From sequence record PP993145.1: 64,000 nt of DNA; one strand, 5' to 3'. The DNA is from Escherichia phage phiP4. Shown here one piece after another: positions 23 through 34,358 of this stretch (position 1 is its first letter; every line of letters begins with the position of its first letter). The translations under genes and the position numbers were made by a program. Under the pieces are notes generated by a model, which saw nothing but the letters and a program-made list of their open reading frames with translations, made no database searches and was not told the DNA's origin.

Positions 23-256
23 ATGATCAAAGGTTATATCGATACGCCGATTGGTCGCGTAGTAATCGCTAACCTGCTGAGTGTAGCGGTTGACCAGTAC
101 GCCCCGAGTAACCAGAAAGCGAAAGCGGTAGCGGGGGCGGCTATGGAAGCGGCAATGTTGGAAATGGTGCAAAGTTTTAACATCGCTGAGATGATCGATG
201 AAATGGTAAAAGGTATCGATATTTCTACTTTTACCAATAACACCGAAAACGAGTAA
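23..256 (+). CDS. hypothetical protein (77 aa)
   Basis: ORF track; upstream end of window, no recognisable motif. Confidence 0.4.
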   Translation: MIKGYIDTPIGRVVIANLLSVAVDQYAPSNQKAKAVAGAAMEAAMLEMVQSFNIAEMIDEMVKGIDISTFTNNTENE

Positions 257-376
257 TAACTAGCCCATTGTAAAGTTTTGTAAAGGCCGCCTTTTATGGT
301 GGCCTTTTTTGTTATAATGCCTTTACACCGTTTGAGGACGGTTGAAAATTTTCCCAAAAAATTTTGGAGGCTTAAA

Positions 377-607
377 ATGGTTGCTTTTTCTTCTTCTGAC
401 GCTCTTTTCACTGGAAAAGGCTGGGTATCAAATCGCTGGATTATTCAGGAAATGGTGCAAGAGTACGGCATTGCTAAAACTTATACTACCATTCAGGCGC
501 TTTATGATAATGATCAAATCGATCAGCAAACGGCGGGCTTTTTACTGGATACCCTGAAGGCGGAACACTGTACCAAAAAACAAGCCGCTAAAATTGTTTT
601 AATGTAA
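377..607 (+). CDS. hypothetical protein (about 76 aa; internal start of track ORF 296..607)
   Basis: GGAGG-type RBS a few nt upstream of ATG at 377. Confidence 0.4.
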   Translation: MVAFSSSDALFTGKGWVSNRWIIQEMVQEYGIAKTYTTIQALYDNDQIDQQTAGFLLDTLKAEHCTKKQAAKIVLM

Positions 608-656
608 TTAATAACGGGGCGAAAGTATCGCCCCACTAACTAGGGGAGTATCACAA

Positions 657-839
657 ATGATTATTTTTCGAGCTTTTTTAGCGGGTATCTTGGGAGCTAT
701 TTTGACCCTTTTCGCCACCGCTTACGGTATTCAGGATTCCTATTGCGGTTTGGTAAACACAAAACCTATGGTTACTATAGGCGCTGGTATCGCTGTATTT
801 TCTTATCTGCTGGGCTGCATGAATAGTAAAGGAGAATAA
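657..839 (+). CDS. small hydrophobic membrane protein (60 aa)
   Basis: ORF track; hydrophobic composition. Confidence 0.4.
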   Translation: MIIFRAFLAGILGAILTLFATAYGIQDSYCGLVNTKPMVTIGAGIAVFSYLLGCMNSKGE

Positions 840-2400: not shown

Positions 2401-3000
2401 GTGCAAATCCGACATTGCTCCACGGGTGTTACGTGCGGGCGTGTATGTGCGAATCCGACAATTTTTGGTAGTGTGCAAATCCGACCCGAAAAATTTTTAT
2501 AGTGTGCAAATCCGACAATGAATTTTCCTAAAAACTCCAGCAATCCGATGCTGCGCATCAATCCTGTGGAATTAGCTAGAGTATGTGCAAATCCGACATG
2601 GGTTTATTTGTGCGAATCCGACAAGATTTTTGTGACTTCGATTGGAGGGTGTGTGATTGTGTGGGTTTGGGGAGAAGTTGAGAGAGCGAGAGAAAATAAG
2701 AGGAGAAGCTAGAGGGGCAGCAGTGGTGGCGTGCAACGCCTGATTTGCTGCGTTTTTGGGGAGAGTTGAAAAGATTTGGGTTAATTTGAGATTAGTGGAG
2801 ATAAAGTAAAATTTTATTAGCAAAATGGGGCAAAATAGCTTGACAAGTGAAAATTTCTGTGGCTCTAAAAACTCAGGCAATCACGGGCCTTCGGCCCGAA
2901 ATAATGCTGCCATTTTCAGGAGATTATATGTTCCTAAAAACTTAGGCAATTGTGCAAATCCGACCATAAATTTCTAGAAACACAATGTGCAAATCCGACA
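2401..3000 (+). repeat. eight same-orientation copies of the 14-bp motif GTGC(A/G)AATCCGACA at about 2401, 2448, 2474, 2504, 2585, 2600, 2953, 2987
   Basis: Motif copies read directly; irregular spacing of 15..350 bp; no ORF support. Confidence 0.6.
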
Positions 3001-21037: not shown

Positions 21038-21113
21038 TGGAGCGGCTAGAGGGAATCGAACCCTACTCAGCGAGGCTTGGAAGGCCTGCGACACAACCCG
21101 TGTGCTTAACCGC
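21038..21113 (-). tRNA. tRNA-Gly (anticodon TCC)
   Basis: Hand fold: acceptor GCGGTTA/TAGCCGC, anticodon loop CTTCCAA, CCA. Confidence 0.6.
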
Positions 21114-21121
21114 TTATTATT

Positions 21122-21817: not shown

Positions 21818-22186
21818 AATTGAAAACTCGCAGGGTTAGCGAAACCTTCCTCAATTAGCATGTTCTAGAATACTAATCAAGTTATCTCCTATTGCACGCA
21901 GCTCAAGACGAGTACGAATTTTCAATTGTGGCGGCTCTCAGAAACTCTTCTACTCTAGCTTTAGCAGCTTACTCCCGAACGCATGTCGGGGAAGTCTTAC
22001 CAAGAGCATCAAATAGCACCGTTACACTTTGAGCCATAGATGTATCAAGAAGCAGAAGGATTTGAACCTTCACGAGATAGACCAGTTATCTCAGCCGCTT
22101 TATGAGGTATGTTGCAGGGAGTGGATGTTCCCTATAAACCTTTTAGGCAGCCCCGTCTACCGATTCCGGCATACTTCAAGAATTTT

Positions 22187-22850: not shown

Positions 22851-22941
22851 TGGCGGAAGAGGAGAGATTTGAACTCTCAAGCCGTTTTACCAGTCAGCCA
22901 CTTTCCAAGCGGTTTTCGTCACCAATTCGATTTGCTCTTCC
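22851..22941 (-). tRNA. tRNA-Ser (anticodon GGA)
   Basis: Hand fold: class II, long variable arm, anticodon loop TTGGAAA, CCA. Confidence 0.6.
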
Positions 22942-22974
22942 AATAATAAGATGATGCCTCTATCACACCAGGCA

Positions 22975-23053
22975 GTTACGCCTCGCTGGGATTCGAACCC
23001 ATTAAAACAGCTCAACCGAGATAGTAGGTTTAATTTACTCTGACCATCAAATT
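22975..23053 (-). pseudogene. tRNA-like remnant: T-arm (GGGTTCGAATCCC) with 3-prime acceptor half but no pairing 5-prime half
   Basis: The 13-mer GGGATTCGAACCC is duplicated 79 nt apart; no complementary acceptor strand found. Confidence 0.3.
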
Positions 23054-23130
23054 TGGTGCGTGACAAGGGATTCGAACCCTCAAAACCCGACTTCTAAGGA
23101 CGGTATGTATGCCAATTCCATCAATCACGC
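23054..23130 (-). tRNA. tRNA with Leu-type anticodon TAG but class I (short variable loop) architecture
   Basis: Hand fold: 7-bp acceptor GCGTGAT/GTCACGC, discriminator A, CCA, anticodon loop CTTAGAA, 5-nt variable loop. Confidence 0.5.
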
Positions 23131-23214: not shown

Positions 23215-23452
23215 AAATTCTTTAGTTTACTAAGGCTATTAGCTCGGCGTAACTACAGCACCTTCGCTTCGAGCGGAAGGAACTGCGTCATCTCGCAAAC
23301 CCAATACACTATTCAGTTGCCGCTGAATCTAGTGGACCAATCTAGAACTTCTCCCGAATCAGGGGGATCGTGCTTTTTGGCAGCCAGTCCTAGGTCGAGC
23401 TAATACCTTAGTGAACTATGATGAGGATTTCTCCTCATCAATTTATATAAAT

Positions 23453-23929: not shown

Positions 23930-24138
23930 TAATTTTTGTTAACTCACTTTATAAGATATATTATACAGAGAATTAAGCAGAATAGCAAATGAATTTTTAA
24001 TAAATTTACTTATTGTGTAGGCCACCTAGAGGCTATGAACCCCACGGCTGACAAAGAAGTTTGCGAGACTTCTCTTAAATGCCAGAATAGACCCGCCGAT
24101 CTATCGGAACCTACATAATAAGTAAACTTTATAGTGTC

Positions 24139-24258
24139 ATTCTAGACAGGACTCGAACCTGTTATCACTTGTGCGGACTTACGAGAACCATTCTTTCACT
24201 CGAATCGAACGAGCTTCTGCCCTCGCCAAGCTGGTTTCCCCATCAACCACGCTAGAAT
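24139..24258 (-). other. composite tRNA-like element (120 nt) with two T-arm hairpins and a D-arm-like hairpin
   Basis: Outer 7-bp acceptor-like pairing ATTCTAG/CTAGAAT spans 120 nt; no canonical anticodon arm found by hand. Confidence 0.3.
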
Positions 24259-24380
24259 GTTTGATTGTTTTCAGTGCAAGAGTCCGAGTCTTGGACACGA
24301 CCGCTTCGCAAGTACATAGGCAGCTTATCATGAGTCAGCACTTCCGAATTGCTAGCTCCGTGTTCTGCACTGAAATTTTA

Positions 24381-25052: not shown

Positions 25053-25125
25053 TGGTATCTGTGGCTGAATTCGATGTCAGCAATGATAGCTGGTTGGCTA
25101 CCGGTTTACTTAACTCTACACAGAA
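25053..25125 (-). other. non-canonical tRNA-like element (no U33 in candidate anticodon loop, 8-nt T-loop)
   Basis: 6-bp acceptor with encoded CCA; anticodon loop CAACCAG lacks U33. Confidence 0.3.
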
Positions 25126-25210: not shown

Positions 25211-25362
25211 TAAATTTATATTGCTGACTAGGATTTTCACCTAGACGGAGTTAGCACCGTAGCGTGTAGCGGCATACCTCTCCAAACCGTGCCTCATCTT
25301 TCAATTACGGAGACAGTGTTCCTACGCGTGCCTGAATTGATTTAACAATTCTTTCAGCAAAT

Positions 25363-26145: not shown

Positions 26146-26152
26146 AAATTTT

Positions 26153-26197
26153 TGGCAAACCTACTAGGACTCGAACCTAGACCGTACGGTTTTGGAG
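26153..26197 (-). other. minihelix-like element: T-arm plus acceptor-like stem with encoded CCA, no D or anticodon arm
   Basis: T-arm CTAGG-TTCGAGT-CCTAG followed by TAGGTTT-G-CCA; only a 5-bp partner 45 nt upstream. Confidence 0.25.
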
Positions 26198-26237
26198 ACC
26201 GACATGCTGTCCAGTAACACTCTAGGAATGCAGGAAT

Positions 26238-27867: not shown

Positions 27868-27945
27868 TGGTGGCTCCCCGAGGATTCGAACCTACGTACC
27901 TTCCGGTTATGAGCCGGGTGCTCATACCATATGAGCTTGAGAACC
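27868..27945 (-). tRNA. tRNA with anticodon CAT (third CAT tRNA; Met or Ile2), imperfect T-stem
   Basis: Hand fold: acceptor GGTTCTC/GGGAGCC, D-arm GCTC/GAGC, anticodon loop CTCATAA, CCA. Confidence 0.5.
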
Positions 27946-32138: not shown

Positions 32139-32210
32139 TACCGACCGTAGGATTCGAACCTACATCTTCCACCAGTTACGGCTTGATAATACCAATTATA
32201 CTAGGACGGC
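32139..32210 (-). other. tRNA-like element with acceptor and perfect T-arm but no recognisable anticodon arm
   Basis: T-arm GTAGG-TTCGAAT-CCTAC; acceptor 6/7 paired; no CCA. Confidence 0.3.
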
Positions 32211-33611: not shown

Positions 33612-33916
33612 TCATATTCAACACGATTGGGATTTTCTTTATACCCTAAGTCAAGCAAATCATTACGCATATTTTGCTTAGCTACTGGGTTCGAGGTTAC
33701 TAGTACCACTTTCTTTGGTCTCTGCCCAAATTCTAAGAGTAAACGAAGAATTTGATAACCTTCCATACCATCTACAGCCAAGTCATTATCCATATAAACG
33801 AAATGGCCTGTGGTATCAGTTTTATTCAGAAACTCTACAGCGGCTTCTGGGGTTCGAATGATAATGTCCATTCCGTGAAGATTACGCACATCATCAATCA
33901 AAATATGAAAAGTCAT
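33599..33916 (-). CDS. hypothetical protein (105 aa), possible receiver-like fold
   Basis: ORF track; weak resemblance only. Confidence 0.4.
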   Translation of the reverse strand: MTFHILIDDVRNLHGMDIIIRTPEAAVEFLNKTDTTGHFVYMDNDLAVDGMEGYQILRLLLEFGQRPKKVVLVTSNPVAKQNMRNDLLDLGYKENPNRVEYDWQE

Positions 33917-34358
33917 AATAGCCTCGTTTCATCAATTTAAAAATATATTATACAGATAACTTAGTAAATTAGCAAATACATTTTTAAATTGTGAAACTAG
34001 TAAACCGATAAACAGCCTAGAGGCGCCACAGGCCATATCTTATGAGCCATGTACCTTTGATCTAGGGTTTGAATCATCAACGAATACTTTGCATCTTTTA
34101 GCTTTAGAAGTTTAGAAGTTTGAGTTCTTTAAACTTTTCAGCTTTCATACTTAAATGTTGATCTTTGAAGTTGTGTCGGTAATATCAACGACGCTTTGTT
34201 TTTACGTGTCAGATTAAATGTCTGATGTAATAAACATAATCTCCAATAGATTATACTTTATAGTATGGTCAGCGGTCTTATTTAACCTCGTATTTCAACC
34301 GCTGCTGCGAGGTAAGATGCTTGGGCTTTCGTCTACCGATTTACTAGCTTTTAAATTA

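What the first reader, a model, noticed from the sequence alone, without database searches (positions are those of the whole stretch)
26153..26197. Orphan T-arm plus CCA elements (minihelix-like) in the tRNA cluster
Here, and at 22975..23053 and 25053..25125, canonical T-arms with 3-prime acceptor strands occur without complete tRNA bodies. They may be decayed tRNA duplicates or deliberate minihelices, for example RNase P or tRNA nucleotidyltransferase substrates used as processing punctuation.
Basis: inference. Interest (0 to 1): 0.5.

Follow-up and report, generated by a model that had tools for sequence, protein, structure and literature searches.

The report
One tRNA, two tRNA-like phage RNAs
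The three supposed "orphan tRNA pieces" in this T5-like phage are three different things: an ordinary tryptophan tRNA, an already-annotated tRNA-like RNA (T5 "RNA3"), and a conserved, unannotated ~100-base folded RNA that contains a tRNA-type T-arm and whose function is unknown.

Summary
The window is a T5-like phage (Tequintavirus) with its tRNA cluster on the minus strand.

Site 1 (26153..26197, the finding's own coordinates) is the 3' half of a complete tRNA-Trp(CCA) at 26153..26229. ARAGORN calls it and it scores 36.3 bits on the Rfam tRNA model. It is not an orphan.

Site 3 (25053..25125) is the ortholog of the 73-nt "RNA3, putative tRNA-like RNA" annotated in T5 and BF23. It has an acceptor stem, A73-CCA, a degenerate T-like arm and one extra hairpin. 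It is already known, and selection on its structure is unproven.

Site 2 (22975..23053) is part of a 98-nt element (23049..22952) lying between tRNA-Leu(UAG) and tRNA-Ser(GGA). No record annotates it, including the curated BF23 record. In T5 an HNH endonuclease gene takes its place, and Rfam has no match. Four lineages share one fold: a closing helix, an 8-bp long-range helix, a canonical T-arm running straight into a loop-capped helix, and a possible pseudoknot. Of 27 pairs, 12 show compensatory changes (0/500 shuffles reach this). It has no CCA and no free acceptor end.

It is therefore a selected structured RNA, not a decayed tRNA. Its closest analogue in layout is the tRNA-like module of bacterial YrlA Y RNAs. 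Function is inferred only.

The parts
26153..26229 (-). Site 1: complete tRNA-Trp(CCA). The finding's 26153..26197 is its 3' half (anticodon loop to CCA).
   Evidence: ARAGORN. Rfam RF00005 36.3 bits, E=8e-07, full model 1-71, with U.U mismatches at acceptor pairs 2-71 and 3-70. Same position as tRNAW in T5 and BF23.
22952..23049 (-). Site 2: 98-nt conserved structured RNA element between tRNA-Leu(UAG) and tRNA-Ser(GGA), unannotated in every record examined.
   Evidence: Fold supported by covariation in 4 lineages: 99.7% of cells paired, 12/27 pairs with changes on both sides, 0/500 shuffles reach this. RNAalifold recovers it. No Rfam match. Annotated 'none' or only 'hypothetical protein' in the listed records (the single 'tRNA-Ser' under SEL21 is a mis-annotated 7.7-kb feature) and not annotated in the curated BF23 record.
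23045..23049 (-). P1 5' strand (UGAUG), pairs with 22952..22956.
   Evidence: 5/5 pairs kept in all 12 variants, 2 with compensatory changes. L051 extends P1 to 10 bp.
23038..23042 (-). P2 5' strand (CAGAG), a tentative pseudoknot with 23008..23012 (AGCUG). It may extend to 23035 and 23015.
   Evidence: 75-81% of cells paired. Three pairs are invariant, one is compensatory, and Tequintavirus has tandem A.G/G.A. A local CGG/CUG hairpin is the alternative.
23020..23028 (-). P3 5' strand (CCU-A-CUAUC, with A 23025 bulged), pairs with 22957..22964.
   Evidence: 8 pairs, 100% paired, 5 with compensatory changes.
23016..23017 (-). Invariant GG, candidate D-loop-like partner of the T-loop.
   Evidence: Invariant columns 39-40 of alignment A3. 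The docking role is an inference.
22987..23001 (-). T-arm: stem UGGG/CCCA, loop UUCGAAU (22991..22997).
   Evidence: Invariant loop. 2 of the 4 stem pairs are compensatory: CAGG/CCUG in Klebsiella phages, CGGG/CCCG in the Pectobacterium phage.
22967..22986 (-). P5: loop-capped helix that starts directly after the T-stem (GCGAGGCG-UAAC-UGCCUGGU).
   Evidence: 7 pairs, 98.8% paired, 3 compensatory. The length varies: 20 nt here, 31 nt in L051.
22952..22964 (-). Continuous 13-nt 3' strand of P3 and P1 (GAUAG-AGG-CAUCA).
   Evidence: Variants L056 and L058 diverge immediately after CAUCAU, which marks the 3' boundary.
25053..25125 (-). Site 3: ortholog of T5/BF23 'RNA3' (tRNA-like). Acceptor stem 25119..25124 with 25058..25063, hairpin 25085..25102, T-like arm 25064..25081 (8-nt loop), ACCA 25053..25056.
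   Evidence: 99% identical to T5 33877..33949, annotated 'rna3, putative tRNA-like RNA', and to BF23 'tRNA-like RNA with unknown functions'. The MFE equals this fold, z=-3.0. 97.8% of cells paired, but only 1 pair covaries.
24138..24188 (-). It is the 3' half of the T5 'RNA2' ortholog.
   Evidence: Rfam tRNA model 18 bits, E=0.17, with the D and anticodon arms deleted in the alignment. T-arm census.
22047..22178 (-). Related element: ortholog of T5 'RNA1' (tRNA-like), a tRNA body with a 45-nt insert in the anticodon loop and no CCA.
   Evidence: Rfam tRNA 26.5 bits, E=0.0007. T5/BF23 annotation.

Best explanation
The finding merges three unrelated objects in the minus-strand tRNA operon of a T5-like phage.

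(1) 26153..26229 is a functional-looking tRNA-Trp(CCA).

(2) 25125..25053 is the known T5/BF23 'RNA3'. It is a tRNA-shaped RNA (acceptor stem, A73-CCA, degenerate T-like arm, one extra hairpin) sitting between tRNA-Asn and a small ORF. Most likely RNase P cuts at its 5' end as it would for a tRNA, so that RNA3 separates tRNA-Asn from the downstream mRNA (inferred).

(3) 23049..22952 is a discrete, selected, structured non-coding RNA. It is co-transcribed with tRNA-Ala and tRNA-Leu from the P13b-type early promoter and is flanked by AU-rich linkers. It would be released when tRNA-Leu is trimmed at its 3' end and RNase P cuts at the 5' end of tRNA-Ser (inferred).

The fold of the site-2 element is shown by covariation. 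A composite P1/P3 helix brings the two ends together. A canonical T-arm runs without a spacer into a loop-capped 7-8-bp helix, P5. Together these form a closed 12-13-bp stack the size of the tRNA acceptor/T-arm limb. An invariant GG is available to dock on the T-loop (inferred).

The most likely mode of action is mimicry of the tRNA elbow, to bind a factor that recognises tRNA shape, without being chargeable (inferred). The partner is unknown.
For: Identity of the phage and operon.

Site 1.

Site 3: same length, position and 99% identity to the annotated RNA3. The MFE equals the tRNA-like fold with z=-3.0. One compensatory T-stem pair. KKP 3953 retains only the acceptor hairpin plus ACCA upstream of the same ORF.

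Site 2, conservation: it lies directly after tRNA-Leu(UAG) in Tequintavirus/Epseptimavirus, Klebsiella Sugarlandvirus-type and Pectobacterium DU_PP_V phages, and occurs in an unrelated AT-rich metagenome contig.

Site 2, fold: 99.7% of cells paired, 12/27 pairs with changes on both sides, 0/500 shuffles, slid controls 31-47% paired with at most 2 such pairs. RNAalifold finds P1, P3, T and P5 on its own. The single-sequence MFE of the Klebsiella and Pectobacterium versions already contains P3, T and P5. Many G.U pairs fix the transcribed strand as the minus strand.

Site 2, boundaries: three different tRNA-Leu alleles sit upstream of an identical element, and variants break exactly after P1b.

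Site 2, exclusions: no resemblance to any tRNA of the cluster, no Rfam family.

Promoter: P13b is annotated upstream of RNA2H, tRNA-Ala and tRNA-Leu in T5 and BF23.
Against: No expression or end-mapping data were available for the site-2 element.

Only four lineages are known, and the Tequintavirus-to-Klebsiella correspondence in the P3 5' strand rests on my anchoring to the AAAC-UA motif. However, the Tequintavirus/L051 and Klebsiella/Pectobacterium compensations need no such choice.

The window sequence's own MFE fold differs from the model and is not significant (z=-0.6). The model is 1.9 kcal/mol above the MFE.

P2 is weak.

The element is dispensable in the laboratory sense: T5 and 26 other records have the hegC gene in its place, and roughly half of T5-like genomes appear to lack it.

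For RNA3, the variants are 97-100% identical. Three single substitutions break pairs, so selection on its structure is not demonstrated.
Confidence: 0.7

Rival explanations
1. All three sites are decaying tRNA duplicates (pseudogenes) with no function of their own, as the first reader proposed as one option.
For: RNA3 has tRNA-like proportions (7-bp acceptor stem, U8-A9, 73 nt, ACCA) but a lost D-stem and off-size loops. Three substitutions break pairs. KKP 3953 has lost most of it. T5 records flag several cluster tRNAs as pseudo or non-suppressing.
Against: Site 1 is a full tRNA. The site-2 fold is maintained by 12 compensatory pairs across four lineages and is not a cloverleaf. No site resembles any tRNA of the cluster beyond chance. 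No related genome has a tRNA at site 2 or site 3.
Confidence: 0.15
2. The elements are processing punctuation: tRNA-shaped signals whose only role is to recruit RNase P, RNase E or the CCA-adding enzyme, so that neighbouring tRNAs and mRNAs are cut apart (as with plant mitochondrial t-elements).
For: RNA3 lies 2 nt after tRNA-Asn and 27 nt before an ORF with a GAGGAAAT ribosome-binding site. It has an 11-12-bp acceptor/T stack plus ACCA, the minimal RNase P substrate shape by established knowledge. KKP 3953 keeps just the acceptor hairpin plus ACCA. The RNA2 3' unit is a minihelix.
Against: The site-2 element is flanked on both sides by real tRNAs, which already provide RNase P and 3'-trimming sites. 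It has no free acceptor end, and its conserved long-range helix and invariant single-stranded motifs are more than a cleavage signal needs. In the Pectobacterium phage and in L056/L058 it precedes an ORF, so a role there cannot be excluded.
Confidence: 0.3
3. The conservation of site 2 acts at the DNA level. It would be a homing-endonuclease target or recombination hotspot, kept uniform by gene conversion rather than an RNA gene.
For: T5 and 26 other records carry the HNH gene hegC (F-TflI) exactly in place of the element. 171 records are >=99% identical. The flanks are mosaic.
Against: A DNA target does not predict compensatory base-pair changes, strand-specific G.U pairs, or a variable-length hairpin that keeps its pairing. 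The two explanations are not exclusive.
Confidence: 0.1
4. Site 2 encodes a small protein. A 59-aa TTG ORF spans 22887..23066, and a few records annotate 'hypothetical protein' there.
For: ORF list. 'Hypothetical protein' annotation in a few records.
Against: The ORF overlaps tRNA-Leu and tRNA-Ser. The homologues differ by indels of 6, 1 and 11 nt that do not preserve a frame. The substitutions are paired in RNA helices.
Confidence: 0.02

Closest known systems
T5/BF23 'RNA3' and its sibling 'tRNA-like stable RNAs' RNA1 and RNA2 (misc_RNA features of GenBank AY543070 and NC_042564)
   Same: Site 3 is RNA3 itself: same length, same position, 99% identity. RNA1 and RNA2 orthologs are also present in the window. 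The site-2 element shares their setting: a non-tRNA RNA with a T-arm embedded in the same early tRNA operon.
   Different: The site-2 element is not among the annotated RNAs, is absent from T5, is not cloverleaf-derived in layout, and has no acceptor end. The function of all of them is listed as unknown.
tRNA-like module of bacterial Y RNAs (YrlA; Chen et al. 2014, PMC4201824)
   Same: The ends of the RNA are joined in a closing helix. A T stem-loop with a canonical T-loop is followed directly by a loop-capped 'acceptor' stem, so the RNA cannot be charged. YrlA-type RNAs are also reported in phages.
   Different: There is no local D stem-loop after the capped stem; a long-range helix (P3) and a possible pseudoknot take its place. 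No Ro60-binding motif was recognised. There is no match to any Rfam family, in a search that covers all Rfam families. Linkage to an rsr gene was not examined.
tRNA acceptor/T-arm minihelix (the minimal substrate shape for RNase P, CCA-adding enzyme, TruB and TrmA; established knowledge)
   Same: RNA3 and the RNA2 3' unit have an acceptor stem stacked on a T-type arm. RNA3 also has A73-CCA. In site 2, the T-arm plus P5 stack is 12-13 bp long, like a minihelix.
   Different: The site-2 stack is closed by a loop and embedded in a larger fold. RNA3 carries an extra hairpin and an 8-nt loop in place of the 7-nt T-loop. The RNA2 unit lacks CCA.
tmRNA tRNA-like domain
   Same: A T-arm within a larger non-tRNA RNA, and a D-loop analogue without a D stem.
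   Different: tmRNA has an open, alanine-accepting acceptor stem with CCA and a coding region. ARAGORN finds no tmRNA here.
Plant mitochondrial t-elements / the tRNA punctuation model (PMC1920247, listed; not read in detail)
   Same: tRNA-shaped elements next to ORFs that define RNA ends. This is the closest analogue for what RNA3 may do.
   Different: Those are organellar systems using RNase P and RNase Z. No processing data exist for the phage elements.

Membership tests
Canonical tRNA (Rfam RF00005 / ARAGORN) | Full cloverleaf scoring at or above the 29-bit gathering threshold, with a 7-nt anticodon loop | tested here: met
   Site 1: 36.3 bits, model 1-71, anticodon loop CU-CCA-AA.
Canonical tRNA (Rfam RF00005 / ARAGORN) | Same feature, applied to site 2 and site 3 | tested here: not met
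   No tRNA-model match even at E<=10 on the isolated stretches. No ARAGORN call.
T5/BF23 RNA3 | 73-74-nt segment starting 2 nt after tRNA-Asn, homologous to T5 33877..33949 | tested here: met
   Site 3: 73 nt, 2 nt after tRNA-Asn, 99% identity to T5 and BF23.
tRNA minihelix (acceptor stem + T-arm + 3' NCCA) | Open acceptor stem of about 7 bp stacked on a 5-bp T-stem | tested here: met
   Site 3: 6 bp plus U.U, and 5 bp. The RNA2 3' unit at 24138..24188 also meets this.
tRNA minihelix (acceptor stem + T-arm + 3' NCCA) | Canonical 7-nt T-loop (UUCRANN) | tested here: not met
   Site 3 has an 8-nt loop, CAUCGAAU, which varies among phages.
tRNA minihelix (acceptor stem + T-arm + 3' NCCA) | Free 3' end with discriminator base plus CCA, applied to site 2 | tested here: not met
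   In site 2 the strand after the T-arm forms hairpin P5, and no CCA is present in any lineage. Site 3 does have A-CCA.
YrlA-type Y RNA | T stem-loop followed by a loop-capped acceptor-like stem, inside a closing helix | tested here: met
   Site 2: the T-arm 3' strand abuts P5, and P1/P3 close the molecule. Layout compared with PMC4201824.
YrlA-type Y RNA | Conserved local D stem-loop after the capped stem | tested here: not met
   After P5 come GU and the 3' strand of long-range P3. There is no local hairpin.
YrlA-type Y RNA | Match to a curated Y RNA covariance model | tested here: not met
   No match to any Rfam family at E<=1 on the whole cluster, or at E<=10 on the element alone. These searches cover all Rfam families, Y RNA models included.
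YrlA-type Y RNA | Genomic linkage to a Ro60 (rsr/TROVE) gene and binding to Ro60 | not tested
   The window's proteins were not scanned for TROVE domains. Binding needs an experiment.
tmRNA | tRNA-like domain with an alanine acceptor end plus a tag reading frame | tested here: not met
   ARAGORN reports no tmRNA in the window.

The most novel reading that the evidence does not exclude
The site-2 element founds a new family of phage-encoded, non-chargeable tRNA-elbow mimics: a permuted, YrlA-like tRNA shape with a capped acceptor limb. The phage would use it to occupy or redirect a host factor that recognises tRNA shape, for example RNase P, TruB/TrmA, a Ro60-PNPase-type decay machine, or a tRNA-directed defence nuclease. 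This would add a decoy layer to the known role of T5 tRNAs in counter-defence.
Probability: 0.25. Interest if true: 0.75.

Novelty: new variant of a known kind. Interest (0 to 1): 0.5.

Why it matters
T5-like phages are model systems and are widely used as biocontrol and therapy candidates. Their tRNA clusters have recently been linked to evasion of tRNA-targeting host defences, as cited in PMC10644984 and PMC11464382.

The cluster also holds non-tRNA RNAs that have been labelled 'function unknown' since their first annotation. This work shows that one more such RNA exists. It was missed because the reference phage T5 has lost it to a homing-endonuclease gene. It is present in about 250 deposited genomes, including BF23, and its fold is clearly under selection.

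That gives a concrete, testable object: defined ends, defined helices, and natural deletion alleles (T5 and the hegC carriers). It can be used to ask what tRNA-shaped decoys do during infection.

The work also corrects the record for the finding itself. Its headline coordinates are an ordinary tRNA-Trp, and one of its other sites is an already-annotated RNA.

Tried and rejected
1. Rfam at permissive thresholds on each isolated site found nothing for sites 2 and 3.

2. Single-sequence MFE of the window's site-2 element gives a different, non-significant fold (z=-0.6). Its helices, for example CGGUUG/UAACUG around the T-arm, are not conserved in L051 or the Klebsiella phages, so I rejected it.

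3. My first register for P1 in L051 (7 bp) was superseded by a 10-bp helix in register with the 5-bp P1 of the other lineages.

4. The CUC-GGUU-GAG hairpin inside the element is broken by G->A in L051, so I rejected it.

5. The scan with CCAAATTTGATGNTCAG in IMG/VR returned mostly chance hits; only L031 was informative.

6. The genome-contig scan with a T-arm/P5 pattern returned 33 hits, all ordinary tRNAs or coding sequence in GC-rich bacteria, with no homologue among them.

7. Searching L051 against deposited phages matched only its tRNAs, so its lineage stays unknown.

8. Global alignment of RNA3, the site-2 core and the RNA2 minihelix against all 26 cluster tRNAs gave no score above the shuffled controls.

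9. Literature searches for T5 stable or tRNA-like RNAs found no description beyond the GenBank annotations. The original Ksenzenko-laboratory papers are not in the library.

10. The simple sigma-70 scan did not pick up the P13b-type promoter (T5 promoters have -35 TTGCTW). I therefore rely on the T5/BF23 annotation for the promoter.

11. No covariance model was built. Only sequence already fetched could have been searched with it, and an alignment fitted to the model would not have been independent evidence.

Full report
**What the window is.** A 5-kb stretch around the finding is 94-97% identical to many T5-like phages (Tequintavirus/Epseptimavirus, Demerecviridae). ARAGORN finds 22 tRNA genes, all on the minus strand between 19.5 and 31.6 kb. 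Rfam's tRNA model adds four more. Everything below is read on the minus strand.

**Site 1, the finding's own coordinates (26153..26197).** This is the 3' half of a complete tRNA-Trp(CCA) at 26153..26229. ARAGORN calls it. The Rfam tRNA model aligns it end to end at 36.3 bits (threshold 29), with a normal D-arm, anticodon loop CU-CCA-AA, T-arm and G73-CCA. Acceptor pairs 2-71 and 3-70 are U.U, which probably made the 5' strand invisible by eye. T5, BF23, chee24 and other relatives all have a tRNA-Trp between tRNA-Phe and tRNA-Glu. The T5/BF23 allele is a quite different sequence. The 'orphan' description is wrong here.

**Site 3 (25053..25125).** The hand-annotated T5 record AY543070 has 'rna3, RNA3, putative tRNA-like RNA': 73 nt, starting 2 nt after tRNA-Asn. 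The BF23 tRNA-region record and DT571/2 annotate the same feature. The window segment has the same length and position and is 99% identical, so it is RNA3.

- *Fold.* A 6-bp acceptor stem plus U1.U72, then U8-A9, a 14-nt unpaired stretch where the D-arm would be, a 6-bp hairpin with a 6-nt loop, a 5-bp stem with an 8-nt loop CAUCGAAU, and A73-CCA.
- *Stability.* This fold is the MFE, with z=-3.0 against shuffles.
- *tRNA likeness.* Neither ARAGORN nor Rfam scores it as a tRNA, even at E<=10.
- *Variation.* Across the eight distinct variants I hold, the helices form in 97.8% of cells. The sequences are 97-100% identical, though. One T-stem pair is compensatory (G-C to A-U), one change is wobble-compatible, and three single changes break pairs. 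Selection on the structure is therefore plausible but not shown.
- *Natural deletion.* In Salmonella phage KKP 3953 most of RNA3 is gone. A CUGUG-AUUCAGU-CACAG hairpin followed by AUACCA remains in front of the same ORF. This hints that the acceptor stem plus ACCA is the part that matters.
- *Context.* RNA3 lies 27 nt upstream of a 61-codon ORF with a GAGGAAAT ribosome-binding site. A role as an RNase P-type processing signal is thus a reasonable inference. It remains untested.

**Site 2 (22975..23053).** This stretch lies in the 111-nt spacer between tRNA-Leu(UAG) (23054..23130) and tRNA-Ser(GGA) (22852..22942). It contains a canonical T-arm, UGGG-UUCGAAU-CCCA.

- *Annotation.* Nothing meaningful is annotated here in any listed record. 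The curated BF23 record leaves it blank.
- *T5.* In T5 the whole spacer is replaced by the HNH endonuclease gene hegC (F-TflI). The hegC arrangement occurs in 27 deposited records, and the element in about 248.
- *Distribution.* Homologous spacers sit directly after tRNA-Leu(UAG) in Klebsiella Sugarlandvirus-type phages and in Pectobacterium phage DU_PP_V. A metagenome scan added a much more divergent copy on an AT-rich contig, L051, which has no relative among deposited phages.

**The fold of the site-2 element.** I aligned 12 distinct variants by segmenting on invariant anchors (TCAG, AAA..TA, CTGTTTTAA, TTCGAA, GGTGT), with N used as a gap filler. The model has these parts:

- P1: UGAUG/CAUCA, 10 bp in L051.
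- P3: CCU-(A)-CUAUC with GAUAG-AGG.
- The T-arm.
- P5: a hairpin that begins immediately after the T-stem (GCGAGGCG-UAAC-UGCCUGGU).
- P2: a possible pseudoknot, CAGAG/AGCUG.

The nested model pairs 99.7% of cells. Twelve of 27 pairs change on both sides, and none of 500 column shuffles reaches that. Sliding the partners by 1-3 columns gives 31-47% paired and at most two such pairs.

By helix, the pairs with compensatory changes are: P3 5 of 8, T-stem 2 of 4, P5 3 of 7, P1 2 of 5. P5 varies in length (20-31 nt) while keeping its pairing.

RNAalifold recovers P1, P3 (including the 3-bp extension I had missed), T and P5. The single-sequence MFE structures of the Klebsiella and Pectobacterium versions already contain P3, T and P5. 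Numerous G.U pairs show that the functional strand is the tRNA strand.

*Caveats.* Only four lineages are known. The correspondence between Tequintavirus and Klebsiella in the 5' strand of P3 depends on my anchor, whereas the Tequintavirus/L051 and Klebsiella/Pectobacterium compensations do not. P2 (75-81% paired, one compensatory pair) cannot be distinguished from a local CGG/CUG hairpin. The window's own MFE is a different, non-significant fold.

**What site 2 is not.**

- Not a tRNA or a decayed copy of one. It matches no tRNA model, resembles no tRNA of the cluster beyond chance, and no tRNA occupies the position in any related genome.
- Not a minihelix. No lineage has CCA.
- Not a small protein gene. 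The homologues differ by frame-breaking indels.
- Not found in bacterial genomes by the pattern scan. Those hits are ordinary tRNAs.

**How it probably works (inferred).** The T5 and BF23 annotations place the early promoter P13b upstream of RNA2H, tRNA-Ala and tRNA-Leu, so the element is part of that polycistronic precursor. It is flanked by AU-rich linkers (AAUU; UCUUAUUAUU) and by tRNAs. Normal tRNA processing, meaning 3' trimming of tRNA-Leu and RNase P cleavage at tRNA-Ser, would release a ~100-nt RNA whose ends are locked in P1/P3.

The T-stem and P5 can stack into a closed 12-13-bp limb the size of the tRNA acceptor/T-arm limb. The invariant GG (23017..23016) could dock on the T-loop as G18-G19 do in tRNA.

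The nearest described architecture is the tRNA-like module of bacterial YrlA Y RNAs. There, a T stem-loop is followed by a loop-capped acceptor-like stem inside a closing helix. M. smegmatis YrlA is even cut by RNase P in that loop (PMC4201824).

The resemblance is one of layout only. The D stem-loop, the Ro60-binding motif and a covariance-model match are all missing, so I do not file the element as a YrlA.

**Chance, and the wider class.** The T-loop core GGTTCGANTCC occurs 20 times, all on the minus strand, against 0.03 expected. Only two copies lie outside tRNAs: site 2, and 24149..24159. The latter belongs to a real 51-nt minihelix-like unit at 24138..24188 (acceptor stem, U8-A9, T-arm, no CCA). 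That unit is the 3' half of the ortholog of T5 'RNA2'. The 'RNA1' ortholog at 22047..22178 is a tRNA body with a 45-nt insert in the anticodon loop. The cluster therefore holds a graded series of tRNA-shaped non-tRNAs. Three are annotated in T5/BF23, and one (site 2) is not.

**Verdict.** The headline site is an ordinary tRNA, one site is a known annotated RNA, and one site is a conserved structured RNA that appears to be undescribed.

- *Novelty:* a new variant of a known kind (tRNA-like non-coding RNAs in phage tRNA operons).
- *Interest:* 0.5. The structure evidence is solid and the object is testable, but the function is unknown and the element is dispensable in some phages.

Noticed in passing
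window 22852..22942 (-): tRNA-Ser(GGA) is missed by ARAGORN and scores only 23.3 bits (below the 29 threshold) on the Rfam tRNA model. It is annotated as tRNAS2 in T5, BF23 and chee24. One T5 record flags it as pseudo, and another notes that it does not become an amber suppressor.
   Followed up: partly
window 27871..27945, 32139..32210, 21041..21114 (-): Three further tRNAs found by Rfam models but not by ARAGORN (40.3, 35.5 and 30.9 bits, the last on the tRNA-Sec model). They correspond in position to T5 tRNA-Ile2/Met, a pseudo-tRNA inside 'RNAX', and tRNA-Gly(UCC).
   Followed up: no
window 22047..22178 (-): Ortholog of T5 'RNA1'. It has a complete acceptor stem, D-arm and T-arm, but a 45-nt insert in the anticodon loop, a long variable arm and no CCA (tRNA model 26.5 bits).
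   Followed up: partly
window 24138..24266 (-): Ortholog of T5 'RNA2', made of two tandem tRNA-like units. The 3' unit (24138..24188) is a 51-nt minihelix with a canonical T-arm and no D or anticodon arms. The 5' unit (24190..24266) has a canonical T-arm but only an insignificant match to the tRNA-Sec model (11.9 bits, E=8.8).
   Followed up: partly
window 23054..23130 (-); loci L016, L011, L005: The window's tRNA-Leu(UAG) is 77 nt and lacks the long variable arm, whereas the T5 allele is an 85-nt class II tRNA. Three different tRNA-Leu alleles sit upstream of an identical site-2 element, so a recombination breakpoint lies at the CCA/element junction. Variants L056 and L058 break right after the element's last helix.
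   Followed up: partly
L051 (metagenome contig ERZ808232 NODE-7939), minus strand ~300..245 and ~120..75: Its copy of the element is flanked by two minihelix-like units (acceptor-type stem plus T-arm, 12-17 nt in between, no proper CCA). The contig is AT-rich and has no relative among deposited phages.
   Followed up: partly
L064 (Salmonella phage KKP 3953) 598..680 (-): RNA3 is internally deleted there. Only a CUGUG-AUUCAGU-CACAG hairpin followed by AUACCA remains upstream of the same ORF. A partial duplicate of the tRNA-Asn 3' end lies next to it.
   Followed up: partly
L005 8172..8257 and L006 7957..8042 (-) versus window 26146..26237: T5 and BF23 carry a tRNA-Trp allele unrelated in sequence to the window's. 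In BF23 the anticodon loop reads CUACAAA instead of CUCCAAA, which explains why an ARAGORN-based reannotation reported no tRNA-Trp in BF23 (PMC10644984).
   Followed up: partly
L009 (Klebsiella phage) 2578..2657 (-): The 80-nt spacer after tRNA-Asn holds a structured segment closed by UUAGGG/CCCUAA. It is unrelated in sequence to RNA3 and is not a tRNA.
   Followed up: no
window 25211..25362: About 150 nt of apparently non-coding sequence between tRNA-Cys and tRNA-Asn. T5 and BF23 have a 519-nt ORF there (T5.069 / ORF trn 2.8).
   Followed up: no
window 23220..23420 and 24000..24120 (-): Orthologs of the T5 stable RNAs 'RNA2H' and 'RNAIV' (function unknown). They have no T-arm and no Rfam match.
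   Followed up: no
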